Virus record (IMG/VR): IMGVR_UViG_3300028833_002847
Length of the DNA stretch: 55,153 nucleotides
DNA from: a virus
Reading direction: 5' to 3' (one strand)
A model generated the notes under the pieces. That model searched no databases. It worked only from the letters and a program-made list of their open reading frames with translations, and was not told the origin of the DNA. Position 1 is the first letter of the stretch. Each line of letters opens with the position of its first letter. This document shows positions 4,651 through 49,874 of this stretch, piece after piece. A program made the position numbers and the translations under genes.

Positions 4651-4692
4651 AAAAAAAGAGGGGTACTCAATTAAGAGTACCCCTTATTTTTT
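4651..4692. terminator. bidirectional intrinsic terminator at the convergence of the plus-strand early operon and the minus-strand late module
   Basis: A7 run, then a 10-bp stem gaggggtactc/gagtacccct with loop aattaa, then a T8 run. U-runs on both strands. Confidence 0.75.
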
Positions 4693-6251
4693 TACCATTT
4701 ATTATCATTTAAAGAGCATTGTAAGGCTTTAACAGATTCTCTACCAAAATATCCATCTACATCAATATCGTAACCTTTATTAACTAACCATTGCTGGAGA
4801 GCTCTTGAGGTCCCAGGGCCTCATTGACCATCAACTTCCGCACCAACTTTACTTTGAATAGCTTCAACTAATTGAGAACCAGTTCCGCTATCATATTCAA
4901 CATTATACATTCCTCAATGGTAATCTTTATTTCCAAGCCATTGACCGCTAATAACACCATCTTCATAAGTACCTAATGTGTGCTGTAAATCAATAATAGT
5001 ATTTCATCCACCAATACCATCAATTTCAAGTTTTCCACCATCGCGATTATTTTTTGGATCAGTTGAAACATCTGGTGTGAAATTTCCACTATCAGAATTA
5101 CTATAATGAGGTCTAATAACATAGGCTACGTTACCCATATTACGATATTTTTCTTGTACGGCATTACCAACATTACCTTCAATTGTTGGGAATCCAGAGC
5201 CATCAAAACTTCCTGTTGCAAATCCAATATGGTCAGTAGCTCCATCTCAATCCCAATTAAAGATAACAATGTCTCCATACTGTACATTATATTTATCTAC
5301 AGCATAATTTTTTGCGCCATTATTTAGAGCTAAATCTGTATTATAAGTTGGGAAACCTTTAACTACAACTCCTGCTTGTTCTAAGCATCAACTTACAAAC
5401 ATGCAGCACCATCAAATTTCAACAGAAGGTCCAGCAAGCCAATCTTCATCTCACTTATCAGCCAATCAACGACCATATTTAGAACCTGGTTCAGGATCAT
5501 TAGGAGCATAATATCCTAATTCACCATAAGCAACGTCAATAACACTTTTAGCTGTTCCACTCATTTGTTTACTTTCTTCTTCTTTTTTTTCCTCTATTGG
5601 TTCATCAGTTTGAATAGTTTGTCCAGCAGCTATTCTTGCGGGATAGTCGATACAACACCAATCGCAATCGTGATAACCACTAACATCATCAAATACTATA
5701 TGACCATCAGATAATCTAATTCCGCCTTGCTGTCACATTCCAATATCTCCAGCTTCAGTTGGTCAAGAAGCTTTTCATCAAGCAATTCAATTAGCATAGT
5801 CACGAAGTTCATCTGCATACATATTGTTTAATCATGCATTTCCACCAGTATAAAGTCCTGCATAATATCCTCTATTACGGAGAGTATCGCAAAAAACTTT
5901 AATAACATCAGTTAAAGTACGTGCTGATAACTGGAATTGTCTTGGATCTTCAACATCTGTGTAACAAGGTAAATCAAATTTATGTCCATCAAGTAAATCT
6001 GCAAAGTGATTAGCATCTTTTCTTGAATTTTCTGTATCTGTAGTAACTGTATAATAATATGCTCCAATATGAAGTCCAGCAGCTACAGCTTTTTTATAAT
6101 TATTTTCAAATTGTCCGTCTTTATAACGTCCTAAATTTGTTTCATTTCCACCAGCTTTAATAATAACGCCTCAAAGTCCTCTCTGACGTTTTCAAGCTGC
6201 TAAATCAATATCCCCATCTCAATGAGAGATATCAAGAACAAGTTCTTTCAT
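4692..6251 (-). CDS. endolysin: N-terminal GH25 muramidase, central CHAP/NlpC-P60-like amidase/peptidase, C-terminal PG_binding_1 peptidoglycan-binding repeats (table 4, about 519 aa)
   Basis: SD AGAGGTG. N-terminus LDISHWDGDIDLAAWKR...VIIKAGG. GH25 motifs ANWIAWW and GMWQQGG with the conserved Trp encoded by TGA. Cys/His core ...WWCCMFVSWCLEQAGV...DHIGFATG. C-terminus QWGPGTSRALQQWLVNKGYDIDVDGYFGRESVKALQ. Confidence 0.8.
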
Positions 6252-6280
6252 TTTCCGCACCTCTTTTCTATATAAAAAAA

Positions 6281-6312
6281 GAGTCCCATATTTCAGGGAC
6301 TCTTTTTATTTT
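6281..6312 (-). terminator. intrinsic terminator between the holin and the endolysin
   Basis: Stem gagtccc/gggactc with an 8-nt loop. Followed on the minus-strand transcript by a U7 run immediately downstream of the holin stop. Confidence 0.55.
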
Positions 6313-6601
6313 ATTCTTTTAGATGAGCAGGCTGCTTTTTTAATTCATGCATTAGTATGTCTGCTTGAAGAGCGGGTTGAGTAAAACTGTTATTCTTCCA
6401 TCAAGCGATAATAGAAGCTACAACAACAGCAACACCTGAAGCAATTTCATAAATATTGTTTTCATCAATATCAATAGGAGTTCACCCAAGTAAAGCGCAA
6501 AAAGCATTAACTAATGCAATAAATAGAACAATGGTTCTAGCAATAGTCCCAGGTTCAATTGAAAGCAATCCGTCTAAATTAATTGTTTTTGCTTCAGCCA
6601 T
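6311..6601 (-). CDS. holin (LL-H / phi-LC3-like class, about 95 aa)
   Basis: SD AAGGTG. Charged N-terminus. Two hydrophobic helices (IARTIVLFIALVNAFCALLGW and ASGVAVVVASIIAWW). Polar C-terminal tail. Directly upstream of the endolysin. Confidence 0.65.
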
Positions 6602-6627: not shown

Positions 6628-7428
6628 TTATTCTCCAGTTCCGCTTCCACCAGCGACGAGTGCATCAATCTCTGCATTAGTAGCAAATGTAATATCTGCA
6701 TCTAAGACATATGGAGAAAGATCAACGAAGCCAGGAAGTACATCAAATTTATAAGCAGGAGACTGACCAGTTGTGTCAGTATCAACAACAACTACATTGG
6801 TTCCAGCAGGATAAGTCTTAGTTACTCCACTAGCATATTCAACGAAGTCACTAGTAATAGTAAAGGAGTCAGTAACATTATAAACGTTACCAAGAACACC
6901 AACAGCTAGAGTTGGTAGACTTGCAAATGCTACAGAACCAGCAGGCTTATAAACAGTAGCAATCTGAGCAGCTACAGTGTCATCAACATAAGTTTTAACA
7001 GCTGCGCCTGTTGGAAGTTTAGCATCATTAGCAAGTGTAGTCTCAACGTCTTTATAAGCAGCAGCGTCAAGACCATGAACGGCTACATCTGAACCATTAA
7101 CAGCAACAGTACCATTTGTAGCACCTTCGGCAACTGTAACATTAACTTTCTTGGTTGTGCTATCAGGAGTTAAATCTGTAGCATTAACTTGGACACCAAG
7201 AACTGGAATTGTTACGTCAACCTTTTTGTTAGCATCAGGAGTTAAGTCAGTACCATTATATTGAACACCAAGAATTGGAACTTCAACATCAACAGCACCA
7301 TCAGCATCCTGTGTTAGAGCTGTACCATTACACTTAACAGTTTTTACTGCACCAGCAGGAGCAAATGTTTCTGTAGCTTTCTGCCATAAACGTTGAATAC
7401 CAGCCCAATCAACGAGTTTCATCGCCAT
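6628..7428 (-). CDS. Ala/Val/Thr/Gly-rich repeat protein, probably a virion structural or decoration protein
   Basis: SD AAGGGTGA. Internal repeats VDVxVPILGVQxNxTDLTPDxxKKV. No TGA. Noticeably GC-richer than its surroundings. Confidence 0.45.
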   Translation of the reverse strand: MAMKLVDWAGIQRLWQKATETFAPAGAVKTVKCNGTALTQDADGAVDVEVPILGVQYNGTDLTPDANKKVDVTIPVLGVQVNATDLTPDSTTKKVNVTVAEGATNGTVAVNGSDVAVHGLDAAAYKDVETTLANDAKLPTGAAVKTYVDDTVAAQIATVYKPAGSVAFASLPTLAVGVLGNVYNVTDSFTITSDFVEYASGVTKTYPAGTNVVVVDTDTTGQSPAYKFDVLPGFVDLSPYVLDADITFATNAEIDALVAGGSGTGE

Positions 7429-7445
7429 ATAATCACCCTTTCTTT

Positions 7446-8078
7446 CTAATTACCTTGTATAATTTCTTCTATTTCATCATCTGTAACAGCTCTAAATCCA
7501 AAGTCCTCTAATGTTTGATTCCCTGTAAGTTCAACTCCATTAATAGAAGGTTTGTTTGTAACATAAAGATAATCTGTTACACCTTCGAGTTCAACTTCTT
7601 CTAATCATTTTGTAATATCTTCTACACTTTGATTCATAACTATTGCAGCTTGTGAAAACAAATTATAATCATCAGAAGCAATAAATTTATCTAAGTCTAT
7701 TGGGTCTGCGGAAATAGTAACTTGAAAATCATCTGTTCCAATTAAACTATTATTATCAACTTTTTCAATTTTACAAATAATATGTCCTTCTTGAATCATT
7801 TTTGATGGTCAAGCTATTTCTCAGACTGGATTAATTTTTAAAGTTTTATCTCCAACTTCAATACAATTAAATACATTATAGCCTTGAATATCTAATTCTT
7901 GATGATGCCATTTTAAATAAATTTTAGTAGAAGAAGTAAAAACAGAAGCAGCTTCTTGAGAAAAAATTACTTTTAATTTTTTTCCATTAATATCATTGCC
8001 ACTAAATATCATATCTTCTATTGGTTGATAAAAAGATTTTATTTCTAAAATACAAGAAGTTAATGATAACATATTCAC
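7446..8078 (-). CDS. hypothetical protein (about 210 aa; fragments 7821-8078 and 7605-7799 joined across TGA; real stop TAG at 7446-7448)
   Basis: Fragments share a frame and were joined manually across two TGA codons. RBS AGGAAGAGGTG. The start may be GTG 8078 or ATG 8072. Confidence 0.5.
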
Positions 8079-8155: not shown

Positions 8156-11100
8156 TTAATTTTGTTCTGGAATATAGAAGTAACCTTTATCTGTATTATT
8201 ATTAACAGAGCCATCTTTACGATAAGCAATATAAATAGTATGCGGGATTCCTTCCAAATTCTCAAATTTTGCTTCTTTATAATTCATATTAGAATTACCA
8301 TAAGTATTATAATTATAATTACTAGTAGTAGGTTGAGCATCTATTTTCATAATTAAATAGTCATAATTGGATTCTCCATATGAACAATATTTAATGATAA
8401 ATGTATCATATCCATCAATATTAATCATACAAGTATCAGTAGTATTATGTTGATTTGTATGTTTACTACTATAATATACTGTATGACCATCTACTTGAGT
8501 TCCACTATTAGCTCATTCATCATTATTAAGGTCTATAATATATTCTTGTTGAATTAATATTACTCTTAATATCTTTGTAGCAGTTATACTATTATTATAA
8601 ATACTAGTAGCTGTAATAATTAAAGTATCTCCATCAGAAGCATTTACTAATTTAACTAAACCATTAGTATCAATAATAGCGTTACCTTCAATAGACCAAG
8701 TTACTCCACGATATTGCGGGTCAACATCAATACTATCATCTGGGTCTATATAGACAGGAGTTAATTGAGCAACTCTATCATAAACATCTTGTTTATAACA
8801 ATTGATAGTTTCAATATTGGAATCTAATCTTATAGATACTAATTCTTTATCAGAGCCATCTTTAAAAGCGCTTAAAACATTTTTTCATTGATAAGCTGCT
8901 TTATATGTTGGGAATAAGCTTAATGGAATATAAATAGAGGTTACACCAGTAGAAGAAAGATATGTATTAGTATCTGAATTAAAGTTTTTAAATACTCCAC
9001 GAGCATAAATTGTTCTAAGATTTGTCGCATATCTAAATATTTCTGATGTAGAATTAACTGCTGAAAAATCTCAACCAGAAATATCTATTGTATTTAATTT
9101 ATCACAATAATAAAATAATCCATATAAATCTGTGACTGTTGAGAATGTTCATTTAGACATATCGAGTTCAGTAATTGCTCTATCATATCAAAACATTTGT
9201 CTAATAGTAGTAAGATATGGAGTATGCATTTCTCCAAAATGAATACTTGTTAAACTAGGATTGTTTGCAAACATAGCTTGCATTGTAGTAACATTTGTTA
9301 CATCCAATAGATCAAAGTCAAAAGTTTTAATTCTTGTTTCATTAAAAGCATGACTTAAACTAGTAATTTGTGAGGTTTCACTATTAATAATATCAAAAGA
9401 GCCAATCTGATAACGACCACTTAAAGTAATATAAGTTCCACTAAAATTATTAAATGTAATATTTAATGTACCAGCGCTAATATCATTCATAGTAGAAATA
9501 ATGGTACTAATTCTACCGCAATCACTACAATTAATAAATTCTGTATTGGTAATTTTACTATCATAACGAAACATGTTAGATACATTTGCGGAAGATGGTA
9601 TATGTGGAATAATAACACTCGTTAAATTTGAACAATTTGCCATTGAATATTGTAAATTATTAATTTTATCAACAGATAATTTTGTAGCATCAAGAATTGT
9701 CATTTTACCTTCATAGAAAGCATAATTAAAATTACAGTCTGCTTGTTCTCGCATATTTCATTTTGAAGTATCTAAAATAGTTAAATAAGGACACATATGG
9801 AAACAATATGTATAATTAGTTACATTTGAAAAATCCATATTAATATCTTTAAGATTATGAATTCCAGTTCCCGCATAAGCATAATTTAATGAATTAGGTT
9901 TATTTCTTTCATGAATAATAATTTCTCCATTGTTATTTTCTACTCAATTAACCATATTAATATTTTTAATTCTAATAGCACTTCTAATAAATTCATTAAA
10001 ATTATTATTAATAGTACCTTCAACAATTAAAGTAATAAAACTATTACTATTATTAGCTCCATTACAAATTCATCTAATTAAACTATTTCCACCTGTTCAA
10101 CCATTACATTCAGAAAAATAAATATTTTGAAGAGCAGAACAACCTTTTAAACAATCAGTGGCATAGCCACTATCATAATCATAAAGTTGCTTAGCATTCC
10201 TAAATTCAATTGTGTCAAGAGTAATACAATTTTCAAACATATGAGTCATATGTAAATAATAAGCTCGATTAGCAACTACTAAATTTGGAAATTCTATATA
10301 ATCAATAGACGTACATTCTGCAAACATATAATCATAATAAATATCTGTTCCTTTATTAATATTCATATTATAATTTTCAGGGAAAATAATCTTTTCAAGT
10401 AAACCACATTGATAAAACATATATCTTGAATCTTGAATTTTAGTAAAATTAGAATAACCAATATCTACAGTTACTAAATTAACACATCCAGAAAACATAT
10501 ATTGAGTATTATTTACATTTCCAACATTTCAAGTAGTCATATTTATTTCTGTAACAAATACTTCCATATTATTAGCTATAGTTCCAGAATCTTCCATAAA
10601 TTTAATTTTAGTTATGGCTCTACAATTTTGAAACATGCAAGACATATTAGTTATAGGAGAAGTGTCAGCATCATTTGTGGTTGTTGTTAATCTAAATCAA
10701 TCAATATAATCTAATTCATAACAATTTTGGAATCAACCTTGCATACTAGTAATTCCAATAAATTTAGAATATTTTAAATTAATAGATTTTAAAGCTCAAC
10801 ATCCAGTAAATAAATATTGAGCACCAGAACTACTTAATTCAACAAAATTTACACTACTTAAAGTTAAATTTGTTAAAGAATGACAATTAATAAACATTCT
10901 GCTAATATTAGTAGCTCTACATGGATTAGTAAATAAATAATTAATATTTAAAGTTTCAAGAGCATAACAATTTCCAAACATATATTCTAGACTTCTACCA
11001 CCAACTCATGGGCTAGAATTATTATTTTGTCCAACTCTTGTAAATGAAACATTGTGTAAGTCTAAAGATTTTAAAGCTCTACAATGATTAAACATACTTT

Positions 11101-14100
11101 GACAATACATTACATTAGAAAATAATCAGCCATTATCTCCTTGATGTGTATTAATTTCTTCAAGAGCATAACAATTTTGTAACATACAGGTTGTACTATA
11201 AGCGCCAATCATATTGAAATGTTGATTTAAAGTTTTTAAAGCATAACAATGTTGAAACATGTATTGGAAATTGGTACATTTTTGAGAAATAAAACTATCA
11301 GGAAAAGTTAATTCTTCAAGAGCATGGCATCCTTCAAACATCCCGTCAACTCTTTGAAGATTTGCTCCTCCAAAGGTTTCTGGAATTCTAATTGATTGAA
11401 GAGCATAACATCATTGAAACATTCTTTCTGCACTAGTATTATTTATCATTGTAAAAGTATCTGGAAGATATAATTCTTCAAGAGACTCACAATAACAAAA
11501 CATATACGTAGCATTATCTCCACTTCATAAAGAAGTATTAAAATTAGGAATCAAGAGATGCTGTAATGATTTACAATTATAAAACATTTGATAAAAATCA
11601 GAACATTTAATAGTATTAAAACTTGTTAAATCTAACTCTTGTAAAGATTGACAATCATAAAACATTTCATACATTGTAGTAACATTTTCTGTTGAAAAAT
11701 TACTAAAATCTAAAGTTTCAAGTTTAGTACATGCATAAAACATTTCAGAAAAAGTAGTTACTAAATCTGTATTTAATGGAGTTAAATCAAAAGTTACTAA
11801 AGAAGAACAATAACAAAACATATTAGCACAATTAGTTAAACTGTGTCAATATTCCATACCACTAATATCTAAAGTAGTTAAATTAATACAATCATAAAAT
11901 AAATTAGATACATTTTTAATACTTTGTCCTTGAGCCCCTCATGTAGACATATCAATAGTAGTACCTCTATATCCTCTAAATAAATTAGCAATACTAGTAC
12001 AAGTATTAATATTTCACTCTTCTAGATGAAGATCAACACTACTACCACAATAAGTTCCGCCTATTGATTTTCCTGCTAAATAGAAAGTATTATCTCTATA
12101 AATAACTCTTTGTAATGCTGAGCATCCTCAAAATTGAGCCTGAATATTTTTAACATGTTCAGTCCAAAAACTAGAAAGATTAATAGTTCGAATAGTATTA
12201 GCATTTAAAAACATTACTGCTCAATTAATAGAAGTAGTTGTTTCTTGAATATTTCATTGAGACAAATCTACACTAGTTCCCTTATAGCCACTAAACATTG
12301 CTACAAAACTTGTTTGCTGTGAAACATCTCAATGACCAATATTTAAAGGAATTTTAATATTATAAAACATTTGCCCAACTGCTGTATAATATGTATATCT
12401 CATACTTCCATTAGTACCAGTATCAATTCATCTTGTAGAATAGTTTTCATTACTTCAATAATCAATTGAATTAGCCTTCATTATAAATGAATTTGTTTCA
12501 AAAGTTTTAAGTTTAGAACAATTATAAAACATAGCTTCAAAATTTACAACTTTAGAAGTATTAAATGTTTGAATTTTTAAAGTAATTAAATTAGTACATT
12601 CAGCAAACATTTCTGCCATACTTGTTCCTTGAGAAGTATCTCAATTAGAAAATATTAATTCCGTACCTTTATAACCATAAAACATTCTAATAAAATATTT
12701 CATTAAAGAGGTATTAAAAAGAGTCAAATCATGAATTTGTCCTATACTTCCATTGAACATGTCTCTAACATTTACACTAGAATGGAACTTTCATTCATTT
12801 GTTATATACAAATCCTGTAAATTAGAGGTTCCATAAAACATTTCTGACATATTGGTACAAAATTCAATATTAAAGTCTGAAAGAGTAATTGTAATTGCCT
12901 TACAGTTATAAAACATTTGTGACATATTAATACAAGATTCGGTATTAAAATCTAAAAGAGTAACTGTAGTTGCTTTACATTCTCTAAACATCTGCGACAT
13001 ATTGGTACAAACTTCTGTATTAAAATTTGAAAGTGCGATTGTAGTTAATACAACATTTGTATTATAAAACATTTGATACATTGTTGTTACATGAGAAACA
13101 TCTCAAGTAGAAATATTAATTTCTGGAAGAAAACATCCACCAAACATATAAGTCATATCTGTAACTGAAGAAGTATCCCAAGTATTAAATAAAATTCAAG
13201 GAGCATGTACATCTGCAAAAGTATTAATCATATTCTGTACAGAAGAAATATCTCAAGTAGATAAATCTAATCCATTAGTAAAAGTAGACAGCCTAAACAT
13301 AGCTCTGAAAGAAGTAATATTAGAAACATTTCAATTTGCAACGTTTATATTTGTAAAAGTTGAACGATACAACATTGCTCTTAAATTAGTAATATTACTA
13401 AAATCTAAATTTTCAGCTTCTAATGTTCCAATAGTAGAATCATAAAAGAAACTAAAATCACTATCTCAACTAAGAATATTTGTTAAACTAGTAATATCTC
13501 AATCTGTAATATTAATTAAATTTGCAGTACATCCTCTAAAAATAAATTGCATATTAGTACAATTACTCATATCTCAGGTTCTTAAATCTAATTCAAGACT
13601 AGATGTTCCCATTTCTCTAAACATACCACTAGCATTTAAAACTTCACTAGTATCAAGAATATCTAATCCTTCAATAGACTGCAAACCTTTTAATTTATAA
13701 AACATATTCATACTATTAGCATTTAAAATAATAGGTGCTGCAACTTCAAAAGTAATAGTAATTGTTCCAGTATCATTATCTCAATTAGCTACTACTGGAG
13801 AACCTTGAGAACCAATAGCAATACCAGATTTTTGAATACCATTTTCAAATATTATATGTTTAATTTTAGTATCTTCAAAATTACCATCTGTAACATTACT
13901 TCCATTTGCCATACGTTTAATAGTATAAGAAAATTCACCACCAGAAATTAATCTAGAATTATATTTTTCTGGAAGAAGCGGAAAATCATAATATGTTTCT
14001 ACTTTAATAGGAATATCTTCATTTCAAACAGTATACATATTTTGAACACCAGTATACATATCTTTAGGAAATTGCATTGGATATAAAACTATATTGTAAT

Positions 14101-19930: not shown

Positions 19931-19942
19931 TTTATCTCCTTT

Positions 19943-23503: not shown

Positions 23504-23513
23504 TTAACCTCCT

Positions 23514-33482: not shown

Positions 33483-35249
33483 TTAATGTGGGTAGACAGT
33501 AATTTTAACAGTATGACTATCTATTTCAGAAGAACTTCCTGTTTTTAAAGTAAAAGAATTTACTATATATCTATTTGTGTCGTATATTTCAACGGTATCT
33601 GGAAGAGTGTCTATTACCAATATTCCTTCAACTGATGAAGCATCTATTTCATCTATTCTACCAGTATGGACATCTGTAATATATACTTTTCTAGGTGCTT
33701 GTACAACTTGTCTACCATTTAACGTAGAACCACTAGTTTGAGAATGTACAATTTTGTGATCAACAGCATTATCACAAATAATATGAAAAGTTATTTGACC
33801 TTTTGGTAAAGGTCTGTCATTACCAGAGACAAATTGTACAGAATAAACTTTATTAGCTTTCTTACGTTCTTCATATAATGTAGAACCACCTGAACCAGTA
33901 TGACTTTCAAGATATTCTAATTTCATATCTTGTAAAGCTGCATCTTGACTTGCTTTATCACTATTTTTAGTATAAATATTATCTGTTAATTGATTCATTT
34001 CTGCTTTTGAAGCTCTACGAACTTCTTTAGCATAATAAGTATCATCTTCAAAAATAGTTGATTTTTGTCATGTTAATTGACCAGAACGAGGACTTAAATA
34101 AAGAACTTTATTACTAGCGTGAGAAAGAATAATTTGTTCAATTTTTTCTTCATCCCAATTCATTTCAGCTCTTTTTTGTAAATCTGGTTCTCCATAATGA
34201 TGATAGTTAGCTTGTACTAACTCATCAAAAGGAATAACAAAATAAATTCCTCCAATACCATATTCCATTCTAGCAGCATCATAAACTCTAACCTGAATTC
34301 CAGTAACACCATTTTGACGCCAATAGGCCCCAGATCAAAGTCCTTGACCAGAATATCAAAAATTAGAAAGATTATGAACCGGATATCAATCATGAGTTAA
34401 TCAATATTCAAAAATTAAACCATCATCAGTATAATATCTATGACTATTACCAAATTTGATTCTTTCTCCAGAATGATTATTAAAAGCATTACTATAAGCA
34501 TCACCTATTTTAGCATGATTTAAAGTATCAATACTAAGTCCAGGCATCCAACCCATAGAAGTATAACTTGTAGCAGGTCCAACAGCCTCAGCTATATCAC
34601 CACTAAAATTATACATTATTTCAACATTATTAATAACATTGAATTCTCATCCACCTTGCGTAGCATCTTGAGGATCTCAAACAGTATCGCCATGTTTCTG
34701 AACAGATTCAAGACCCAATAGAATGGAATTAGTTTGTACTTTGCGGGACAAGCCTGAAAATCCTGTAATGTTTCCATTACTATCTAAGATTGGCTCAATA
34801 TTTCCGTTTGGCATTACTATCTTATTTCAAGCTCAATCTTGACCCATTGCTGCTCCTTTATAGGAGGTGCCTCCTCGATTGTCCATCCAATTTGTACCAG
34901 ATAATGTTGCAGCATCAAAGTCAAAAGGTTGACCAATATCAACTTCTGACGTAAAAGGAGCAAATCCCGCAGGTTTCATAGGAGTTCTAGTAGTAATATT
35001 TACAGTCGCTTGAAAAGGAAACAATTGTCATTGTCCTCCACCAGCATTAAAATATAAATCTCTAGTGTTTCCAAAATTAAAACCGAGAGGGGCATTTATC
35101 TTTCCTCTCATCGTTGTATTATAAATATATCCTAAAGGATAAAATAAATGCCCTCTATATCATACTTCTTTTACATGATTATTACCATAATAAATAGGTT
35201 CATTTCAAGTACGAAAGGAAGCATCTCTATAGTTAACTTCATTAAACAA
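33483..35249 (-). CDS. tail/baseplate structural protein (about 588 aa, table 4)
   Basis: Probable TTG start at 35249, 7 nt after SD AGGAGG. Fragments 34833-35024, 34401-34616, 34068-34268 and 33483-33998 share a frame. Stop TAA 33483-33485. Confidence 0.45.
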
Positions 35250-40714: not shown

Positions 40715-40732
40715 CTGTCACCACCTTAAATG

Positions 40733-40772
40733 TAAAAAAAAAGAGCGAAGAACACAAAGGTTCCTCGCTCTT
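40733..40772 (-). terminator. intrinsic terminator after the tape-measure gene
   Basis: Minus-strand transcript forms AGAGCGAGG-loop-CUUCGCUCU followed by a U9 run. Confidence 0.6.
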
Positions 40773-40838
40773 ATAATAATCCTTTTGCTCTCTTTAGATA
40801 ATAAAATTTATTAAGAGATATTTATTATTTTTTGCCCA

Positions 40839-43800
40839 CTATTTTTTTCTATGAGCATATTGCGCAACATTATTTGTTAAACTTAATATTGCTTCTCTAA
40901 TGTCATTTTCACTAGTAGCATTTGGGAAATTAGCTTCAATTTGAATATTCTGATTTAATTCCTGCATTTCTGTTGAAGAATTAATATTTTGAATATGTGA
41001 CCCAAGAGATGAAGATGAAATATTAGAAATCATCTGTCTAATCAAATCAACTGCTTGTAAAATATTAACAGTATCTTGCGGATTAAGCACTAATTCTTTT
41101 TCATGAAGAATTGCTAAACGACCGTTATCTTGACTATCTCAATCTCCTGTATATCCACCTGTATCAAAACGACTTACATCAAATTGTGAGTAAGATGAAT
41201 ATCCTCCGCTTGCTCAACGATGTGGGTCATAATTATAACCATAACCACTATTAAATAAGTTTTGAACTGCACTATAAATAGCATCTCCAGTTTCTTGACC
41301 AAACTTTTCATTCATATAAGCATGCCTTGTTGGATCGTCACCTCATGAACCATAAGTTCAAATATTACCAGCAATACCTTCTACAAGGTCATCAAAACTA
41401 TATCCTCTAATAGTGCTATCTCCGCCTCCACTAGGTGCGGGAGTAGCAAAGACAGAATTATAACCAGCTACAGAACCAGTACTAGCAATTGCGGTACTAT
41501 AAGAAGAACCACCACTTGTAGCATTAATAATATCTGTATTAATTGTAGCTGCTCTTTGAGCATTAGCAGCTTGTTGAGCAACTTCTTGTTCCATATTATA
41601 ATTTCTAGATTCAGAAATAGCTAATTGATTTTCAAGTTGAGCAGCTCTTTGAGCATAAATACTTAAAGTATCTCTCATTGAACCAATTTGGCCGCCAAGC
41701 TCGTTAATATGTTGAGTATATTGCGCTACAACTCCTAAGTCATTATTAAGACTTTCAATAAAAGCATCTGTTTCATCTTTAAGTCTCATAGTTTCTTCTG
41801 TTGTTCCAGAAATAGCAGAAGTTACTTCTCCTAATGAATTTACTACATTTCCTGCTGCATTTTCAACACTAGATTGCCATTCTGCAAAATTTTGAGTAGC
41901 ATGTTCAATTAATTCATCGTTAGCAGCTTGTACCGTAATACCATCATTAATTCAACTTAATGCAGAATTTGTAAATCTTTCATCAATTTCTGATAAAGTT
42001 TCATCATTACCTTCTGCAAAATCTTTCATAATATTATTGAAGGTATCAGTAGTATTAACTGTAATTGAAGAAGCAATATCAAGAGCATCTTGAAGAATAT
42101 TACCTTGAGCTAATTCAAAAACTTTAGTTTCTCTTTCGAGATATTGTTCCATAGCTTCTGTCATAGCTTTAATTTTTTCTTCTTTTTGCTCTTCTGTTAG
42201 GGTTGTATCATTCATAATTTCTAGTATCGCATTACGAGTGTTCTGTAATACAGAAATTATATTTTCTTGGCTAGAAACTAAAGCGTTCTTAGAAATCTCA
42301 TAAGCATTTTGTTGAGCATCTAATAAATCAGCAGCGGCAGAATTGGTATCATTATCATTTGCGGTATAAACATAAGAATAATTTCCTTGTCTATCTCGTT
42401 GCAAACGCATATTATTTTTATTATTTCTAGCTTCTTCTAATGCAATTGTTTTTTGAAGAATCTCAAATTGAGCATTAGCATAATCAACTTGATATTGAGA
42501 TAATTGAGTTTCACCTTGAAGTAATTCAAGCTGATTCATCATAGCATCTCTAATACGTTGTTGCGTTGTTAATGTATTAGTGCTATTTAATAAATTAGTA
42601 TATTTATTTTGAAGTTTTTGAACTTCATAAGCACTTTCAACAACATCAAGATATTGTTCAGCATTTCTACTAATAATTTCTCATTGATCTGCATATTCAC
42701 TTATTGTTTGACCATTAAGTAAAGAACGCTCTCAATCTTCTATGGCTTGTTCATTTTGAAGCTCAAATTTCTTATTAATAGTCTCTATCTGTTGTTCTGT
42801 TTGACTTCAAAGTGCTTTTTCTTTATCAAGAATTTTATCTTGAAGTTCATATCACTTTTGTAATCCATCTGCCGTTTCAATATTAAGCTCTTCTTGCATA
42901 GCTTTATAATTAGAAATAACTTGTTGGATAGTTGCTATTTGATTCTCATTATTTTCAATCATATTATCATAAAGAATCATTAAGCTCTCATAATTACGAC
43001 TATTACCATAAGTCATTTCAATAAGCTTTTGATAATGCTCTAATTTTTCATTAAGATGATCAAACTTTGTTAATTGTCTATCTGTCTTATCATAAATTTC
43101 ATTTAGATAATCAGAGAAAGCACTTTGCAACTCTTCATATTCTTGTACATATGTTTCAAGATATTTCTTTGCACCATCTAAACTATTTTTAACAGCTTCA
43201 TATAATTGAGCAGAATTTTTACCAAATATAGAACTTTCACCAGTAGATTCAAATTGGTCAATTTGTTCTAATAGTTTATTCATATCTTCAATTTGTAGCT
43301 GGAATCAACCCTTATTTCCAGTTTCCATACTATCACCAGTACGAATACTATCCATAATAGATTCAATATCTCCAACTCTACGAGCATAATAATCTCTTTC
43401 AGATTGAGTTAAACTCATATCTTGTGCTCGTTTAGCTGCTTCGTTAGCTTCCTTACTATAATATTCTAGCATTGATTCAGTACCAGCATCCCAATAGTTG
43501 GAAAGTTTAGCTACTGCATTATTCATGCGGTCAAGCGGTCTATCTCCGCTTACAAGTTGACTAAATAATGTATTGATATCGAGTACAGTTTCCCGCATAT
43601 CCTTTAAGTTTGATATCATACTTACAGTTTTCTTATAAGCTTCAATTTGCAAATCTTCAATTTTATTATAGAATTCTTCAATTGCTGTTTCAGATTGTTC
43701 AATCTCTTCAGATACTAATTGATCATATCTTTGAATATCTTCTTGATATTGATCTAAAGCTTCTTTAGAATTCTTTAATAAATTTTCATAATATTCTTTA

Positions 43801-46800
43801 TTACTAGATTGAAGATTTTTATAAGCATTTTCAATAGCTTTTTCACTAGAAGTTGCAGCTTTTTGAGCTCTATCAATTTCACTTTTTAAAGCAGATTCTT
43901 CTTCACTTCCTGCGGCTGCATTATTATATTGATCAATTAAAGAATTAATTTTTTGATTATTTTCTTGTTTAACTCTATTAATTTCAGTTAAATAATCATT
44001 TTGAGCTTGAACTTGTGCTTCGTTATAAGCATCTACAGCAGAATTATATTTAGACTGTAAACTATTAAATACTTCTGTATTATTTAAAGCAAATCCAGCA
44101 GAATCAAATGCAACACCTTGTCCCGCAAGATTTGTTTTAAGCTGCTCTGCTTCTTCTTTTTGTAATGCTAATTTCTTCTCTTGGGCTTGAATTTGTGTCT
44201 TTAATAAAGCAATCTGTTCACCAAGATTTTTAGCATAATCATGTCCAGTAATTCTATCTTGCTCATTAGCAATTCTAGTAAACTGATTTGCTAATTTTTC
44301 AAGAATAGTATTAATACGCTCATATCTATCAGCTTCATCATCAAGATATTCTTTCATATCAAGATTTGAACCAGTAACAGCTTCAGGATTTTCAACATAA
44401 TCTTTAAGAGTTTTTTGTTTTTCTTTTTCTGTTTTTTCTTTTTCTGGTTCAGGAATGCCAACTTTTTCTAAAGTAGCAGGAGTTTCAACGCCTTTAGCTT
44501 CAATTTGAACTGCCCCAGCACGTAATCTATTAGCCAAATTTCTTAAAGCTTCTGCCTTAGCAGCTTCACTCTCTGCTTCGTCAAGAAGAGTTTGTTTACC
44601 ATTCTGTTGAGATTGAATAATTTCTTGTGCTCTTTGTTTAGCCGCAGCAAGAGCTTGACTAATCATATTTCCAACAGCACTTAGAATATTGCCAGAACCA
44701 GAATAACCACTAAAAATACTTTGTGTATTTTCAATAGTTCCTTCTAATGCTTGAACAGCTTGGGCAGCCGCATCAGTATTAGCAGCTCCAGCAGCCTTAA
44801 CTGCTTGAGCAACCTGATAAGCGTCTTGAGCCATTCTTCTAAAACTAGTACGTCCATTTTGTGCGAGTTGATTTAGATTTTTACTAGCACTATCAGTTCC
44901 AGAAGCAATATTTTCAGCCATTGTTTTATTAGCTTCATCATCTGATTGTACTAAAGCTTGTGCTACTTTATCTTGCGCCAATCCTCTTTCTTCAAGTAAA
45001 CTCATACTTGTTTCAGTTAAATTTTGATTAGCTTTAGCAATTAAATCATTTGCTTCCTGTTCTGTATGAACGTGTCTTTCGGCTTCCTCTCTTAACATTT
45101 GAGATTGAGTATCATAAGATTCAGCCATTTGTTCTAGATAATCAGCATAATTATTTAATTTACTACGTTGAGCTTCTGCCATAGACTGAGCATCAGCAGA
45201 ATGAAGTCCCATAATACTTTGAACAACTTCAGCATTAAGTTGAATCATTCCATCAGCAGTAATAGAATATCCTTCAAGAATACCTGGAAATGCTAATGCT
45301 AATTCGTCAACTTTATCTGCTGCTACTACGAATTCGTCTCCTACATCTCCTGTAGCATCAACAATATCATCCATAATATCCATGATACTATTAGCTTGAT
45401 CTAATAAATCAGCACCCATATCTATTGAAAGACTAAAGGACTGATTTTCCATATCTCTAGCTAAATCATAAAGAAGTTGTAAATCATTATAAGCAGCTTC
45501 TATGTCTTTATCATCTAAATGAAATACTAAATCATCATAATCTTCAAGTTCTTCTCTAGCTTCAACAACATCATCAACTTGACCTCTTAATTTTTCATAT
45601 TCAGAAGAAAGATTTTCAATATCTTGCATTTGTAATGCATGTTGTTGGTCATTAAGAGTATCATTTAAAGCATAAATAGCTTTTTCAGCTTCAATACCAT
45701 TTTCAGCTAATAATTCATAAACGCTACCAACAGAATCAGATGAAATTTTAACAGCATCTAAACTTTCTTGTAAGTTTTCAGTAACAAATACGCGATAATC
45801 TTCTGCTGTTAATTCAGTATCTTCTCTTACTTTTTGTAAAGCATCTGACATTTTTCCTTGAAAATCTGATATTTGATCTTCAAGATCACCATTTAAACGG
45901 AAATCTATTGTAGATTTATCTAAATTTTTTAAACCTTCATTTCAAGCTTCTACAAATTCATCAGCACTTTCAAAACCAAGTTCTTTAAAAATATCTTCGT
46001 TTTCATAAAATGCTTGTTTTACTTTATCTACAAATTCAGGTCCACGGAATTCCATATATTCAGTAAAATCAATTCCAGTGAAATTAAAAGATCGAGAACT
46101 ATAATCAAAAGCATTTGCTCCACCTTCACCAAGAGTAGAAACAAGTTTATCGTTAAAACTTTGAGCTTGTTCCATATATGATTTAAGCAAGTCTTTGTCT
46201 TGTGTAATTGCTTCTAAAACACCTGCTTGAATTAGTCCTTCTTTAATTTCTTCAGAACTAATTTCTTTCATCTCTTCATCAGAACGTCCAGTTAATTCTT
46301 GATACTGTCCTTTATTAAAACTCTCTGATTGACGATTAATAGAATTACTGACCTGTCTATATAATTCACTTTCTGTATCATTAAGAGTATTATTAACTAA
46401 CTGATTAACAAAATCTTTTTCATTATCGTTTAATTTTTGATAATCTTCATTATTAACTAATGCAGACTGAACTAAAGCATTACTTTGTTCTTGCGCAGCA
46501 ACGGTATTTGCCTGTATTTTTGTTCCAAGGTCTAGTAAAGCATCTCTATGTCGTGATAATAACTCATTTCCAGTATTTATACTATCTACAAGATTGTTAC
46601 TTGCTAATTCCTCACCTGTAGCATTAGGATTCTCAAATAAGTAATTTACAATATTTTTAAGTTGTTCATCGTCTAAATTAATAGATGCGGGACCACTAAG
46701 TTGAGCAGTTCCATACTGATAACCTGTAATTTTAGTTTCTCTATCAAAACCAGAATTAGTATCATGAATAATTTTTTCATTCTCTGCTTGAGCTTGTTCT

Positions 46801-49800
46801 CTAACTTGTTGAGCTTCAATAACTTGATTTTTTGCTACATTTGCAATTTGATTTTCTACAACCTTTTTCATTCCTTCTTCTGAAAAAGTTAAAGCTCCAG
46901 TTTCAGAATCAGTTATTATATATTGTGCTAATTCAGGGAAATTCTTTATTAAATCTAAAACTTTTTGATTGGCAGTTACTAAAGCTTGAGTTCATTCAAG
47001 AGTTCCTTTTGTTAAATTCTCAAAAGTTGAATCTAAATTTTTAACTTCCTCTAAGCCACTTGTTAATTCATCTAATTTAGATTTGGCTTTTGCAGTATTC
47101 TCACTAGCAATTCTTAAATTCTCATTAGCCTTTTCTAAAGCAATATCATATCTATGGACTCAATCATAAATAGCTTTAATAGCTGCAACTAATACAGCAA
47201 TTCCAGCTACTATTGCTGCTGCTATTGGAAGTATAGCACCTAAACTTGCTCCAAAACCTAAAGTCCCTGCTGTAGCTGCTTCTGCAGCACCTGTAAAAAT
47301 ACCAAAATGGCTACTTAAACCTGATAATATATTTGCAATTGTTGTAGAGTTTCCTAAAGCAGTAACTACTGTTTTAAAACTTCCAAAGCCTTCTTTTATA
47401 TCTTTAAAAGATATAACTAACATTGGAAGTGAAGTTAATAAATTACCTACTATTTTATCAAATTTTTCAGCATTAGATAAACTATCATCAGAAATAATAT
47501 TTCCTAATGAAGTAAAACTTTGTCAAACAAACACTAAGCTTGTTAAACCATCTACTAATTGAAGAACAGAACGAGTTTGTTCTTCAAAATTTAATTTAAC
47601 TCCAAAATCTTTATTGACTTCAAGTTGTTGTTTATAAAGAGTTTCAGCATCTAAAATTTCAGCATCTCCTAATTGAGAGCGTAATCCTTGTTGCTTCCCT
47701 CCAGCTTGATCATTATAATCTTGAATTAAATCTGTAGGATCAACATATGAGTCTTTTAATTCTGATAAAATATTTTGCTGCTTTTGAGCATCTTCTATTA
47801 CATCATCTAATTGTTCAAATCCACTTATTAATTTATCTAATTTTTGTTTTCACTTATCTGTAATTTCTTCATTATTAAAAATTTCTGCTTTTAATTCTTC
47901 TAATCTTTTAGAAGCTTTATCACTACCAATATTAGTTTCATCAAATAATTCTTCTAGTTGTGAAATATATTCTTTTAATCCAGTAGAACTAGCTTGAATT
48001 TGTCCTTTTTCTGTAAGAGATAATTTAACACCAGCTTCTTTTAATTGAGCTTCTTTTGTTTCTTTCTCAATTAAATTTTCTAAATCTACTCTTCTATTGT
48101 TTTGAGCAGCATGGAGAGCATTTTCTGCTTGAACCGTTTTTTCAAGTAATTCATTATATTCTTGTTGATTTTTAGCAGAGGCATCGGCAATATTTTTACC
48201 TGCGGATGATTGTGTAAATTGATAAGCTCCAGAATTACTCATTTCAGTGGCTCCAAGAGAAGCCAATAAGTCTCTATTATATTTATCTGATGCTTTACCC
48301 TGTTTATTTTGTTCTCTATTAAATAAAAATTCTCCAATAGAAGAACCAATCTCACGATTTCCTAATTTTAAGAACATGGAAGTAAATGCGGTCAAGACTG
48401 GCAAGCCTCCACCGACACTATCAACAACATTCTGTAAAATATTAACAAAAGTTGTTAAAGTCTCAATAGCAGGTTTATAATTATCAGCATTAAATAAAGA
48501 ATTAATTAAACCTTCTCCAGCAGCAGATAATGATTGCATTTTAGCTACTGCGGAATCCATGTAAATTTCTTGCTGTTTATCTAAAGTTCCAATTGCACCT
48601 TCAGCAGTTTCTAATGTATCTTTATACATATCTGCATTTGACATTAAGGTCTGAAACATATTAACTTGCTGTTTACCAGCTACCTGAATTGCTAATGCTT
48701 GTTGTTGAGCTCTGTCAAGTTCATCTCACTTATCCATTAAATCTTCGAGAATTTCACCCATTTCCCGCATTTGACCATTAGCATCTAAAACCTCTACACC
48801 AACAGACTTTAATGCTCCAGAAACTTTACCTAAATCAACTCCATCTTCAAGAGTTTCTCCAAGTTTTAAATCTCCAATACGAGCATAAATACTACGTAAA
48901 GCATTACCAACTGTTTCAGGAGCTTGACGAGTAACAGAAACCATTGTTGATAATTGTGCGGTCAATTGATTTTGTGATACGCCTAAATCATGAGCTAATG
49001 ATGCAACACGAGTTTCAGCAGTAGCTAATTCATTAAGGTCAGATGCACTTTCTGCGGCAACTAGAGCCATAGCATCCAAAGAATCTTTAGCTTCATCAAT
49101 TGAAAGTTTATATCCATTCATTAATGAAGTAATTTGTGAAGAAGCTGTTTCAGAACTTTGTTGAGTAACATTTGCTACTTCATTCGTAAGTTCTGCTAAT
49201 TTCTTTTGATCTTCAACATTAAAACCGTTTTGAGCAAAAATTTGAGCAGCATCTACGATATCAATAGTAGAACGACCTAAATTTTGTCCAGCTTGACTAG
49301 CTCATTCTGCAAATGATTTCATTTGTTCGTTACTTTGACCAGAAACAATTTGAATATTATTTAAAGAAGTATCTAAATCTTGAACATATTCTACAGAACG
49401 ACGTAGATTATTAGACATTGTCTCAAAAATACTAGCAGTAATACCCCAACGAACAGTATTACCAAAAGTATTTACAATTTTATCAACAGCACTACTAATA
49501 GTATTAAGATTAGTATGAATTCTTCCTAATCCACCAACCATATTATTAATAGCAATTTGACCAGAAGCACCAGCTTTATCTAAATCACTAATTAGTGTAT
49601 CTAATCCAATATTTCCAATTTCTTTTTGTAATTGTTGTCCATTAATAACACCAAGTTTAGGATTAAAAGCTTTAGTTAAAGCGTCTTGGAGTTTCTGTAC
49701 ATTAGCAAGAGACTGGTCTAAACCAAGGTGATCTGCACCAGGGTCTAAATGCATTTGATTCAAAGTTGTTGTAACTTGAGTCAAAGATTTCTGTAATTGT

Positions 49801-49874
49801 TCAATACCCTTTAAATCAGCAGAAGTTTTTAACTGATATTCAATTGTATTTGAATACTTACTCAATGTTCTCAC
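40839..49874 (-). CDS. tail tape-measure protein, about 3010 aa (table 4)
   Basis: Ten listed fragments from 40839 to 49874 share one frame. Junction 45851-45942 checked and is TGA only. The N-terminal region (48726-49121) resembles the TP901-family tape-measure core (SLDAMALVAAESASDL...). Long Gln/Glu/Ala-rich coiled coil. Hydrophobic Gly/Ala segment at 47160-47423. Start is GTG 49874 or TTG 49865 after SD AAGGTGA. Stop TAG 40839-40841. Confidence 0.6.

What the first reader, a model, noticed from the sequence alone, without database searches (positions are those of the whole stretch)
4692..49874. The late region uses translation table 4 (TGA to Trp); the standard-code ORF track is an artefact
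ORF fragments across 8.1-22.6 kb, 23.5-27.2 kb, 35.3-40.7 kb and 40.8-49.9 kb each share a single frame, and every junction I walked is TGA, never TAA/TAG. TGA falls at invariant Trp positions of known families. In the endolysin GH25 domain these are LW(I/V)A and (F/M)WQ(Y/Q). In dUTPase it is the QGDWIDL motif known from Bacillus prophage dUTPases. In the RuvC-like resolvase it is TGWA. Code 25 (TGA to Gly) does not fit these positions.
Basis: partly seen in the sequence, partly recalled or inferred. Interest (0 to 1): 0.85.

Follow-up and report, generated by a model that had tools for sequence, protein, structure and literature searches.

The report
Phage late genes read TGA as tryptophan
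This is part of a roughly 148 kb gut phage whose tail, surface and lysis genes read the stop codon TGA as tryptophan while its DNA-replication genes avoid TGA, a known kind of phage code switch, so the finding is correct but not new.

Summary
With TGA read as sense, ORFs of at least 100 aa cover 97% of the window instead of 67%. The minus strand then reads as normal phage genes: a 3,011-aa tape measure, a 3,924-aa DUF285/BspA protein, a holin and a GH25-CHAP endolysin.

TGA means Trp. In six endolysin homologues verified to use the standard code, the 17 TGA columns hold W in 72 of 102 cells, Y/F in 13 and G in none. Between close relatives TGA changes only to TGG, and TGG only to TGA.

Use is module-specific. 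The ratio of TGA to TGG is 181:51 in late genes, 4:15 in the plus-strand block, and 1:58 in the replication genes of 97%-identical contigs.

The window has no tRNA. Two close relatives carry a 24-25-tRNA cluster about 35 kb away that includes a tRNA with anticodon UCA.

This matches the late-gene stop-codon recoding described by Borges et al., most closely their "Agate" phages.

- The dUTPase and RuvC genes lie outside the stated range, on the plus strand.
- A real TAA at 19943-19945 splits the "8.1-22.6 kb" frame.
- "TGWA" is not an invariant Trp.
- Recoding runs past 49874.

The UCA tRNAs are structurally odd, which is the one possibly new point.

The parts
4692..6251 (-). Endolysin with GH25 muramidase, CHAP and peptidoglycan-binding domains (519 aa). 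It has 17 in-frame TGA and 7 TGG, and the first TGA is at codon 11.
   Evidence: Pfam PF01183, PF05257, PF01471. TGA columns are W in homologues. Codon counts.
6311..6601 (-). SPP1-type holin (96 aa), with 2 TGA and 1 TGG.
   Evidence: Pfam PF04688, E = 1.5e-24; counts.
6628..7428 (-). Ala/Val-rich protein of 266 aa with no TGA and 2 TGG. Its GC is 0.41, higher than its neighbours.
   Evidence: no Pfam hit.
7446..8072 (-). Protein of 208 aa of unknown function, with 3 TGA and 1 TGG.
8156..19930 (-). Giant DUF285/BspA-type leucine-rich-repeat protein (3,924 aa), with 62 TGA and 11 TGG.
   Evidence: Single TAA/TAG-free frame. DUF285/LRR_5 recorded for the orthologue in L054 and L056. Counts.
19943..23503 (-). 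Second DUF285/BspA repeat protein (1,186 aa), with 15 TGA and 2 TGG.
   Evidence: Pfam PF03382 E = 9e-53 and PF13306.
23514..27167 (-). Third DUF285/BspA repeat protein (1,217 aa), with 14 TGA and 3 TGG.
   Evidence: Sequence is paralogous to 19943-23503; counts.
27167..29206 (-). Head-fibre-like repeat protein (679 aa) with no Trp codon of either kind.
   Evidence: Pfam PF11133, E = 6e-7.
29219..31462 (-). Tail or baseplate protein (747 aa), with 9 TGA and 3 TGG.
   Evidence: phrog_32343 and phrog_1887.
31519..33177 (-). Tail-region protein (552 aa), with 5 TGA and 1 TGG.
   Evidence: phrog_30026.
33483..35111 (-). Protein of 542 aa of unknown function, with 10 TGA and 4 TGG.
35261..40714 (-). 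Tail protein of 1,817 aa downstream of the tape measure, with 17 TGA and 7 TGG.
   Evidence: no family hit.
40839..49874 (-). Tape measure protein (3,011 aa, GTG start at 49874), with 17 TGA and 3 TGG.
   Evidence: Coiled-coil tape-measure-like sequence. Start codon and counts. phAss-1 relatives have tape measures of 3,149-3,209 aa (PMC10607447).
50586..52202 (-). Protein of 538 aa, with 7 TGA and 2 TGG.
52273..53448 (-). Tail-tube-like virion protein (391 aa) with no TGA and 2 TGG.
   Evidence: phrog_2729, E = 7e-53. It is 48.5% identical to phAss-1 and 36% to Enterococcus phage EF1. Counts.
53568..54950 (-). Two virion-module genes (252 aa and 203 aa), together with 3 TGA and 0 TGG.
   Evidence: phrog_4051 and phrog_6123.
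4651..4694 (.). Bidirectional intrinsic terminator between the two converging gene blocks. The hairpin overlaps the endolysin stop codon.
   Evidence: Stem of 19 pairs flanked by A and T runs; -23.2 kcal/mol, z = -6.2.
2092..2514 (+). dUTPase (140 aa) with 1 TGA at the W of 'QGDWIDL' and 1 TGG.
   Evidence: PDB 2xcd (YncF) and 2baz (YosS), E about 5e-43, with W at that position.
2514..2993 (+). RuvC-like resolvase (159 aa), with 3 TGA and 0 TGG.
   Evidence: PF02075 on the orthologue. Alignment with the EF1, VRE9_3 and KLEB27-3 resolvases.
1..2102 (+). C-terminal end of NrdD, an NrdG-like activase and four small genes. They contain no in-frame TGA and 8 TGG.
   Evidence: PF13597 and PF13353 on the orthologues.
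2995..4640 (+). SPFH/Band-7 protein and a 235-aa lipoprotein-like protein, with no TGA and 6 TGG.
   Evidence: PF01145 on the orthologue.

Best explanation
The window is about 55 kb of a roughly 148 kb long-tailed phage of a Gram-positive gut bacterium, probably from a ruminant. In its virion and lysis genes TGA is a tryptophan codon.

**Shown**
- TGA sits at Trp positions.
- TGA and TGG interchange as synonyms between close relatives.
- No gene in the window ends in TGA.
- TGA is the main Trp codon in late genes and is almost absent from replication genes.

**Shown in 94-97%-identical contigs, not in the window**
- The lineage carries a 24-25-tRNA cluster with one tRNA whose anticodon is UCA.

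**Inferred mechanism**
1. The host uses the standard code.
2. Early genes lack TGA and are translated at once.
3. Once the phage UCA tRNA has accumulated and been charged with Trp by the host TrpRS, it outcompetes release factor 2 at UGA.
4. Only then can full-length tail, adhesin, holin and endolysin proteins be made.

The recoding therefore acts as a translational timer and lock on late and lytic functions, as proposed by Borges et al.
For: **Coding and frame**
- ORF coverage rises from 0.67 to 0.97 when TGA is read as sense.
- The resulting giant frames contain no TAA or TAG, and the products are recognisable proteins.

**Trp identity of TGA**
- PDB dUTPases and GH25 enzymes have W at the TGA positions.
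- 120 endolysin homologues were compared.
- Six verified standard-code homologues show 72/102 W, 13 Y/F and 0 G.
- Between relatives the only exchange seen is TGA with TGG.
- Trp content becomes normal only when TGA is counted.

**Module bias**
- TGA:TGG is 181:51 in late genes and 1:58 in replication genes.
- Replication genes were read from L054 and L057.

**tRNA with anticodon UCA in relatives**
- It is present in L082 and L083.
- It has A1-U72 and G73, as the phage's own tRNA-Trp(CCA) genes do.

**Host with a cell wall**
- The endolysin combines GH25, CHAP and a peptidoglycan-binding domain.
- The nearest cultured phages infect Enterococcus, Lactococcus and Bacillus.
- Endolysin relatives occur in Bacillota, Atopobiaceae and Ruminococcus MAGs.

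**Mixed codes in the clade**
- Related loci include standard-code, TGA-recoded and apparently TAG-recoded members.
- phAss-1 is a TAG-recoded relative.

**Literature**
- The same pattern is described in bioRxiv 10.1101/2021.08.26.457843.
Against: - The window itself has no tRNA and no Rfam hit.
- The UCA tRNA was seen only in relatives. I could not read the corresponding part of the window's own contig (ENA ERZ27257202 k141_6411382).
- The host is unidentified, so its genetic code is inferred.
- No early gene uses TGA as a stop, so there is no direct sign that TGA ever terminates translation in this system.
- The UCA tRNAs are not ordinary tRNA-Trp.
  - Both have a long variable arm.
  - One scores as tRNA-Sec in Rfam.
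  - Both features fit recognition by SerRS as well.
- dUTPase, RuvC and ThyX carry TGA although they are not classic late genes.
- No RF1 or TrpRS gene was found in the sequence fetched. About 25 kb of the lineage genome was not examined.
Confidence: 0.8

Rival explanations
1. The host itself uses code 4, as Mycoplasma, Spiroplasma or an unknown relative does. The phage simply shares the host's code and there is no switch.
For: - GC is 29%, and TGA is preferred over TGG in most late genes, as in AT-rich Mollicutes.
- DUF285 was first described in Mycoplasma.
- No gene uses TGA as a stop.
- Related TGA-recoded contigs are binned into 'uncultured Bacillales' and 'uncultured Clostridium' MAGs.
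Against: - Replication genes of similar GC use TGA once in 59 Trp codons, against 78% in late genes. Mutation pressure or a shared host code would affect both sets.
- The phage makes a three-domain peptidoglycan hydrolase. Mollicutes have no wall (established knowledge).
- The lineage carries its own UCA tRNA.
- Close clade members use other codes.
Confidence: 0.1
2. TGA is decoded as serine, or ambiguously as Ser and Trp. The reason would be that the lineage's UCA tRNAs are class-II or Sec-like (allo-tRNA-like) and are charged by SerRS.
For: - Both UCA tRNAs have a long variable arm and G73.
- The L083 allele has an 8/4 fold with a 6-bp D stem and scores 50 bits on Rfam tRNA-Sec, above the gathering score of 47.
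- Mukai et al. (PMC5389517) found 8/4 tRNA-Ser in phages and in bovine rumen Clostridia. They showed that such tRNAs insert Ser in E. coli.
Against: - TGA occupies Trp columns, several of them invariant, where Ser appears in only 2 of 102 cells of standard-code homologues.
- TGA exchanges only with TGG between relatives and never with Ser codons.
- Both alleles have A1-U72, as tRNA-Trp does. The L082 allele has the D arm and anticodon arm of a Bacillus-type tRNA-Trp (the reference sequence was recalled from memory).
Confidence: 0.05
3. Code 25: TGA is glycine, and the phage infects Absconditabacteria or Gracilibacteria.
For: Only that TGA is a sense codon and GC is low.
Against: - Gly is at most 1 of 120 residues at any TGA column, and 0 of 102 cells in standard-code homologues.
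- Gly content is already normal without TGA.
- The UCA tRNAs have G73 and A1-U72, not the U73 and G1-C72 of tRNA-Gly (identity rules from established knowledge).
Confidence: 0.01
4. The TGAs are real stops, so the region consists of pseudogenes, assembly errors, selenoproteins or occasional read-through.
For: Table 11 produces many short same-frame ORFs.
Against: - There are 181 in-frame TGA and no TAA or TAG.
- The same TGAs are conserved in independently assembled contigs from ENA and JGI.
- Truncation at codon 11 would destroy the endolysin.
- There are far too many sites for SECIS-dependent selenocysteine insertion.
Confidence: 0.01

Closest known systems
TGA-recoded 'Agate' phages (Borges et al., bioRxiv 10.1101/2021.08.26.457843; later in Nature Microbiology 2022)
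   Same: - Genome of about 127-154 kb; here a 148,461-bp contig.
- Reported from cattle and pigs.
- Firmicutes hosts are predicted.
[quoted passage not shown]
- The lysis cassette and the tail protein next to it are strongly recoded.
- Homing endonucleases carry TGA.
- Standard-code, code 4 and code 15 members occur in one clade.
- Some members carry a suppressor tRNA.
   Different: - Membership could not be tested because no Agate reference sequence was available to me.
- The UCA tRNAs seen here have a long variable arm or a Sec-like fold. The preprint text I searched does not describe this; it only suspects non-canonical tRNAs.
phAss-1 / proposed Phassvirus (OQ749652; PMC10607447)
   Same: - A siphovirus of about 136 kb from the gut with a tape measure of about 3,150 aa.
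- Its tail-tube protein is 48.5% identical.
- It carries suppressor tRNAs, has recoded late genes, and a Bacillota (Eubacteriales) host is predicted.
   Different: - phAss-1 recodes TAG (code 15), not TGA.
- Its GC is 43% in the stretch examined, against 29% here.
Enterococcus phages EF1, H1 and VRE9_1 to VRE9_4, and Lactococcus phage 949-like large siphoviruses
   Same: - Homologous tail tube (34-36% identity), RuvC and phrog_32343 tail protein.
- dUTPase and RuvC are adjacent, as here.
- Genomes are 115-142 kb.
   Different: These cultured phages are annotated with the standard code, and their RuvC genes have no in-frame TGA.
Mycoplasma and Spiroplasma phages (code 4 inherited from the host)
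   Same: TGA is read as Trp and GC is low.
   Different: - Here TGA is confined to particular modules.
- The phage encodes a peptidoglycan hydrolase.
- The lineage brings its own UCA tRNA.
8/4 'allo-tRNAs' and tRNA-Sec-like tRNAs (Mukai et al., PMC5389517)
   Same: The UCA tRNA in L083 has an 8-bp acceptor stem, a 4-bp T stem, a 6-bp D stem with a 4-nt loop, a long variable arm and G73.
   Different: - It starts with A1-U72 and G2, G3, G5-C68, like tRNA-Trp.
- It serves hundreds of Trp-position TGA codons.
- The paper reports Ser, His, Cys and Sec species but none for Trp.

Membership tests
Genetic code 4 (TGA = Trp) | In-frame TGA inside conserved genes, with long frames free of TAA and TAG | tested here: met
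   181 in-frame TGA in 18 minus-strand genes. Frames run up to 3,929 codons.
Genetic code 4 (TGA = Trp) | TGA columns align with Trp in homologues that use the standard code | tested here: met
   72 of 102 cells are W, 13 are Y/F and 0 are G in six homologues with no in-frame TGA. PDB dUTPases and GH25 enzymes agree.
Genetic code 4 (TGA = Trp) | TGA is not used to end genes | tested here: met
   All 28 gene models end in TAA or TAG. In the 13 models with no in-frame TGA, the first stop of any kind is TAA or TAG.
Genetic code 4 (TGA = Trp) | A tRNA with anticodon UCA is available | tested here: inconclusive
   There is none in the window. It is present in two contigs that are 94-97% identical, about 35 kb to the left. 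The window's own contig could not be read there.
Genetic code 4 (TGA = Trp) | Trp found in the protein at TGA sites | not testable with these tools
   This needs mass spectrometry.
Late-gene stop-codon recoding in phages of standard-code hosts (Borges et al.) | The recoded codon is concentrated in structural and lysis genes and absent from replication genes | tested here: met
   TGA:TGG is 181:51 against 1:58, Fisher p = 2e-29.
Late-gene stop-codon recoding in phages of standard-code hosts (Borges et al.) | The host uses the standard code | not testable with these tools
   The host is unknown. Indirect signs are the peptidoglycan endolysin, the TGA-free early genes and relatives that infect Bacillota.
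Late-gene stop-codon recoding in phages of standard-code hosts (Borges et al.) | Phage-encoded machinery for the code change (suppressor tRNA, with or without RF1 or TrpRS) | tested here: inconclusive
   A UCA tRNA is present in relatives. No RF1 or TrpRS homologue was found in the sequence fetched. Those queries were recalled from memory, and about 25 kb of the genome was not seen.
Agate clade | Placement in the clade by large-terminase phylogeny | not tested
   No Agate reference sequences were available. Terminase relatives come from contigs of 125-145 kb with mixed codes.
Agate clade | Genome of about 127-154 kb | tested here: met
   The window is 99.98% identical to a 148,461-bp ENA contig.
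Genetic code 25 (TGA = Gly) | TGA columns align with Gly | tested here: not met
   0 of 102 cells in standard-code homologues, and at most 1 of 120 at any column.
Phage of a wall-less code-4 host (Mollicutes) | TGA used throughout the genome, and no need for a peptidoglycan hydrolase | tested here: not met
   Replication genes have 1 TGA in 59 Trp codons. The endolysin combines GH25, CHAP and a peptidoglycan-binding domain.
Selenocysteine decoding | A few UGA sites at Cys/Sec positions, each with a SECIS element | tested here: not met
   There are 181 sites, and they lie at Trp positions. One relative's UCA tRNA does pass the Rfam tRNA-Sec threshold, but that concerns its fold only.

The most novel reading that the evidence does not exclude
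The opal-suppressor tRNAs of this phage lineage may be a kind not yet described.
- They are 96-nt tRNAs with a Trp-type acceptor end (A1-U72, G73).
- One allele adds a class-II long variable arm to an otherwise tRNA-Trp-like body.
- The other allele has a tRNA-Sec-like 8/4 scaffold.
- The two are exchanged as an exact cassette between genomes that are about 95% identical, with flanks about 99% identical.

If they are charged with Trp, they would be the first long-arm or Sec-fold tRNA-Trp. If they are charged with Ser, TGA would be read ambiguously. Such tRNAs could also help explain why only 35% of code-4 phages had a detectable TGA suppressor in the Borges survey.
Probability: 0.25. Interest if true: 0.6.

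Novelty: new member of a known kind. Interest (0 to 1): 0.35.

Why it matters
**Practical value.** Under table 11 this contig is annotated as dozens of fragments. The annotation loses its endolysin, holin, tape measure and three giant adhesin-like proteins. Table 4 restores them.

**Biological value.** The window is a clean, quantified example of module-specific recoding.
- TGA makes up 78% of Trp codons in late genes and about 2% in replication genes, at similar GC.
- That contrast supports the idea that phages use a private code as a timer on lysis and assembly.

**What it does not do.** It does not change what is known about the phenomenon. The part worth following up is the odd structure and the cassette-like exchange of the UCA tRNAs in close relatives.

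Tried and rejected
**tRNA search**
- ARAGORN on the window found no tRNA, and Rfam at the gathering threshold found no RNA family.
- I then walked outward along related IMG/VR contigs with all eight viral scans.
- No tRNA turned up in about 110 kb until the last hop. About 25 kb (contig 3300032038_006501, positions 36325-61020) remains unseen.
- My first reading of L002 wrongly placed the start of the 93 kb contig 3.8 kb left of the window. One search corrected this.

**Other searches that gave little**
- The one metagenome scan, using the conserved flank of the UCA tRNA, returned only two contigs.
- P0012, an NCBI homologue with the same endolysin-RuvC-dUTPase-NrdG-NrdD gene order, had no retrievable DNA.
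- RuvC against the PDB was too weak to judge its TGA columns. Phage homologues were used instead.

**Circularity check**
- The 120-homologue endolysin alignment could have been circular, because one relative (L003) is itself recoded.
- This was resolved by checking the DNA of six standard-code homologues.

**Not attempted**
- Structure prediction and fold search were not used, because they do not bear on the code question.
- I did not try to retrieve the tRNA region of the window's own ENA contig through a further homologue search. The endolysin's 90% cluster representative came from the JGI contig, so another search would probably have led back to that contig.

Full report
**1. What is in the sequence**

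The window is 55,153 bp at 28.9% GC. When only TAA and TAG break reading frames, the minus strand from 4692 to 54962 becomes an almost gap-free row of long ORFs.
- 8156-19942 has 3,929 codons, with 62 TGA and 11 TGG.
- 19943-23503 has 1,187 codons.
- 23514-27227 has 1,238 codons.
- 35261-40807 has 1,849 codons.
- 40839-49880 has 3,014 codons.

ORFs of at least 100 aa cover 67% of the window under table 11, 97% with TGA as sense, and 72% with TAG as sense. At this base composition about 6% of random codons are TAA or TAG, so frames of thousands of codons without either cannot arise by chance.

The translated products are ordinary phage proteins:
- an endolysin with GH25, CHAP and peptidoglycan-binding domains;
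- an SPP1-type holin;
- three DUF285/BspA leucine-rich-repeat proteins;
- a head-fibre-like repeat protein;
- tail proteins;
- a tail-tube-like protein.

The plus strand from 1 to 4640 carries the end of NrdD, an NrdG-like activase, small genes, a dUTPase, a RuvC-like resolvase, an SPFH protein and a lipoprotein-like protein. The two blocks converge on a strong bidirectional terminator at 4651-4694.

**2. Which amino acid TGA stands for**

I put X at each TGA and compared the proteins with their relatives.
- **dUTPase.** B. subtilis YncF and YosS read 'QGDWIDL' exactly where the phage has TGA.
- **GH25 domain.** Solved standard-code enzymes have W at two of the TGA positions.
- **Endolysin, 120 homologues.** W is the commonest residue at 16 of the 17 TGA columns. 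Y and F are the main alternatives, and G appears at most once per column.

The 120-homologue result could have been circular, because one relative (L003) has 15 TGA in its own endolysin gene. I therefore fetched the DNA of six homologues and confirmed that they have no in-frame TGA. In those six, the 17 TGA columns hold W in 72 of 102 cells, Y/F in 13, Ser in 2 and Gly in 0.

Three further checks agree.
- Between the window and contigs that are 94-99% identical, every change at a TGA is to TGG, and every change at a TGG is to TGA.
- Trp content of the late genes is 0.31% from TGG alone and 1.42% with TGA added, while Gly is already 6.2%.
- In the RuvC-like gene only the third TGA ('SQWRK') lies on a conserved Trp. 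The first ('TGxA') is Y or I in the Enterococcus and Bacillus phage homologues and Y in E. coli RuvC.

Code 25 is excluded.

**3. Where TGA is used**

| Gene set | TGA | TGG | TGA share |
|---|---|---|---|
| 18 minus-strand genes of the window | 181 | 51 | 78% |
| 10 plus-strand genes of the window | 4 | 15 | 21% |
| Replication genes on near-identical contigs | 1 | 58 | 1.7% |

- All four TGA in the plus-strand block are in the dUTPase and RuvC genes.
- The window is 99.98% identical to ENA contig ERZ27257202 k141_6411382 (148,461 bp). It is 97% identical to JGI contig Ga0247611_10000367 (93,199 bp).
- On those contigs the genes to the left of the window are GyrB, GyrA, ligase, an SSB-like protein, a RecA-like protein, DnaB, primase, RecJ, DnaE, NrdD and NrdG.
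- Their GC is similar to that of the late genes. The difference from the late genes gives Fisher p = 2e-29.
- To the right of the window, portal, terminase, homing endonucleases and other head-module genes carry TGA. A block of small divergently transcribed genes carries none.
- Some virion proteins have no TGA. These are the tail tube, the head-fibre-like protein and two small proteins in the window, and the major capsid protein in a relative.
- ThyX in a relative has 5 TGA and 1 TGG.

The edge is not at 4692 or 49874, and the dUTPase and RuvC examples come from outside the stated range.

**4. The decoding tRNA**

The window has no tRNA. I walked outward along related contigs and found none in about 110 kb. 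The last hop reached a cluster about 35 kb left of the window.
- L082 has 25 tRNAs and L083 has 24.
- Each cluster holds a tRNA-Trp(CCA) and one 96-nt tRNA with anticodon UCA.

Both UCA tRNAs have A1-U72, G73 and an encoded CCA, as the phage's tRNA-Trp(CCA) genes do. Both also have a long variable arm.
- **L082 allele.** It is a 7/5 cloverleaf. Its D arm and anticodon arm closely resemble Bacillus tRNA-Trp (the reference sequence was recalled from memory).
- **L083 allele.** It has an 8-bp acceptor stem, a 4-bp T stem and a 6-bp D stem with a 4-nt loop. It scores 50 bits on Rfam tRNA-Sec, where the gathering score is 47.

The flanks of the two alleles are about 99% identical right up to the tRNA ends, while the tRNA bodies are unrelated in sequence. 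A third contig shows a chimeric version. No RF1 or TrpRS homologue was found in the sequence fetched.

**5. Host and relatives**

- The nearest cultured phages are large siphoviruses of Enterococcus, Lactococcus, Bacillus and Brevibacillus.
- The TAG-recoded gut phage phAss-1 shares a tail tube at 48.5% identity.
- phAss-1 relatives have tape measures of about 3,150 aa (PMC10607447).
- Terminase relatives come from contigs of 125-145 kb. Their loci include standard-code, TGA-recoded and apparently TAG-recoded cases.
- Endolysin relatives in GTDB genomes are in Bacillota, Atopobiaceae, Ruminococcus and Oscillospiraceae MAGs, many of them from ruminants. Two are TGA-recoded phage contigs binned into MAGs.

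The three-domain peptidoglycan hydrolase argues against a wall-less Mollicute host.

**6. Interpretation**

The pattern matches what Borges et al. describe for recoded gut phages, and their 'Agate' clade in particular:
- genomes of about 127-154 kb;
- occurrence in cattle and pigs;
- Firmicutes hosts;
- a mix of codes within one clade.

The best explanation is a phage-driven switch in a standard-code host.
1. Early genes are readable at once.
2. Late genes become readable once the phage UCA tRNA, charged with Trp, competes with RF2.

The codon meaning and the module bias are shown. The tRNA is shown only in relatives. The host's code, the charging of the tRNA and the timing are inferred.

Rivals:
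- a host that itself uses code 4 (about 0.1);
- Ser or ambiguous decoding because of the class-II or Sec-like tRNA (about 0.05);
- code 25, or TGAs that are real stops (each about 0.01).

**7. Novelty**

This is a new member of a known kind. The one item I could not find in the papers searched is the non-canonical form and the cassette-like exchange of the UCA tRNAs. These lie outside the window and need experiments.

Noticed in passing
L082 3453-3548; L083 3233-3328; L125 1524-1619: The UCA-anticodon tRNA differs completely between two phage contigs that are about 95% identical. One is a 7/5 cloverleaf with a long variable arm, and the other has a tRNA-Sec-like 8/4 fold. The flanks are about 99% identical up to the gene ends. 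A third contig has a chimera whose 3' acceptor strand does not pair with its 5' strand.
   Followed up: partly
L082 6866-7513: A full-length ROOL RNA (Rfam RF03087, 298 bits) lies inside the phage tRNA cluster. A sub-threshold Y-RNA-like (YrlA) match follows at 7533-7636.
   Followed up: no
window 8156-27167: Three tandem paralogous DUF285/BspA leucine-rich-repeat proteins (3,924, 1,186 and 1,217 aa) take up 19 kb, about a third of the window. They sit where receptor-binding proteins would be expected. A 3,924-aa protein is unusually large for a siphovirus.
   Followed up: no
window 6628-7428, 27167-29206, 50031-50507, 52273-53448; L005 6389-7438: Some virion proteins contain no TGA at all, among them the tail tube, the head-fibre-like protein and, in a relative, the major capsid protein. 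Three of the five have higher GC (0.33-0.41) than their neighbours. This could reflect selection against TGA in highly expressed genes or recent acquisition from standard-code phages.
   Followed up: partly
window 27167-29206: A 679-aa repeat protein has no tryptophan codon of either kind. It is built of repeats of roughly 30-40 residues of the form 'LP.A(T/S)...LGG(V/I)..D'.
   Followed up: no
L006 8053-10777 and L005 1-2114: In a close relative the large-terminase gene is split by homing-endonuclease genes, one HNH-like and one LAGLIDADG-like. These carry TGA and few or no TGG. Borges et al. note that an intron endonuclease is preferentially recoded in Agate phages.
   Followed up: no
window 40839-49874: The tape measure has 3,011 aa. 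At about 1.5 Å per residue that predicts a tail of roughly 450 nm. This is in line with the very long tails of Lactococcus phage 949-like relatives (the rule of thumb and the 949 tail length come from general knowledge).
   Followed up: no
window 4651-4694: A 44-nt near-perfect palindrome flanked by A and T runs forms a bidirectional terminator (-23.2 kcal/mol, z = -6.2) where the plus and minus gene blocks meet. It overlaps the endolysin stop codon.
   Followed up: yes
L061 3371-3994: ThyX in a close relative is heavily recoded (5 TGA, 1 TGG), although neighbouring metabolic genes are not. The dUTPase and RuvC genes in the window behave the same way. These may be middle or late genes, or genes whose products are deliberately delayed.
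   Followed up: no
L126-L130, L085 (endolysin neighbourhoods): Several standard-code phages with homologous endolysins carry a reverse-transcriptase gene (PF00078) close to the tail-fibre and lysis genes. This may indicate diversity-generating retroelements.
   Followed up: no
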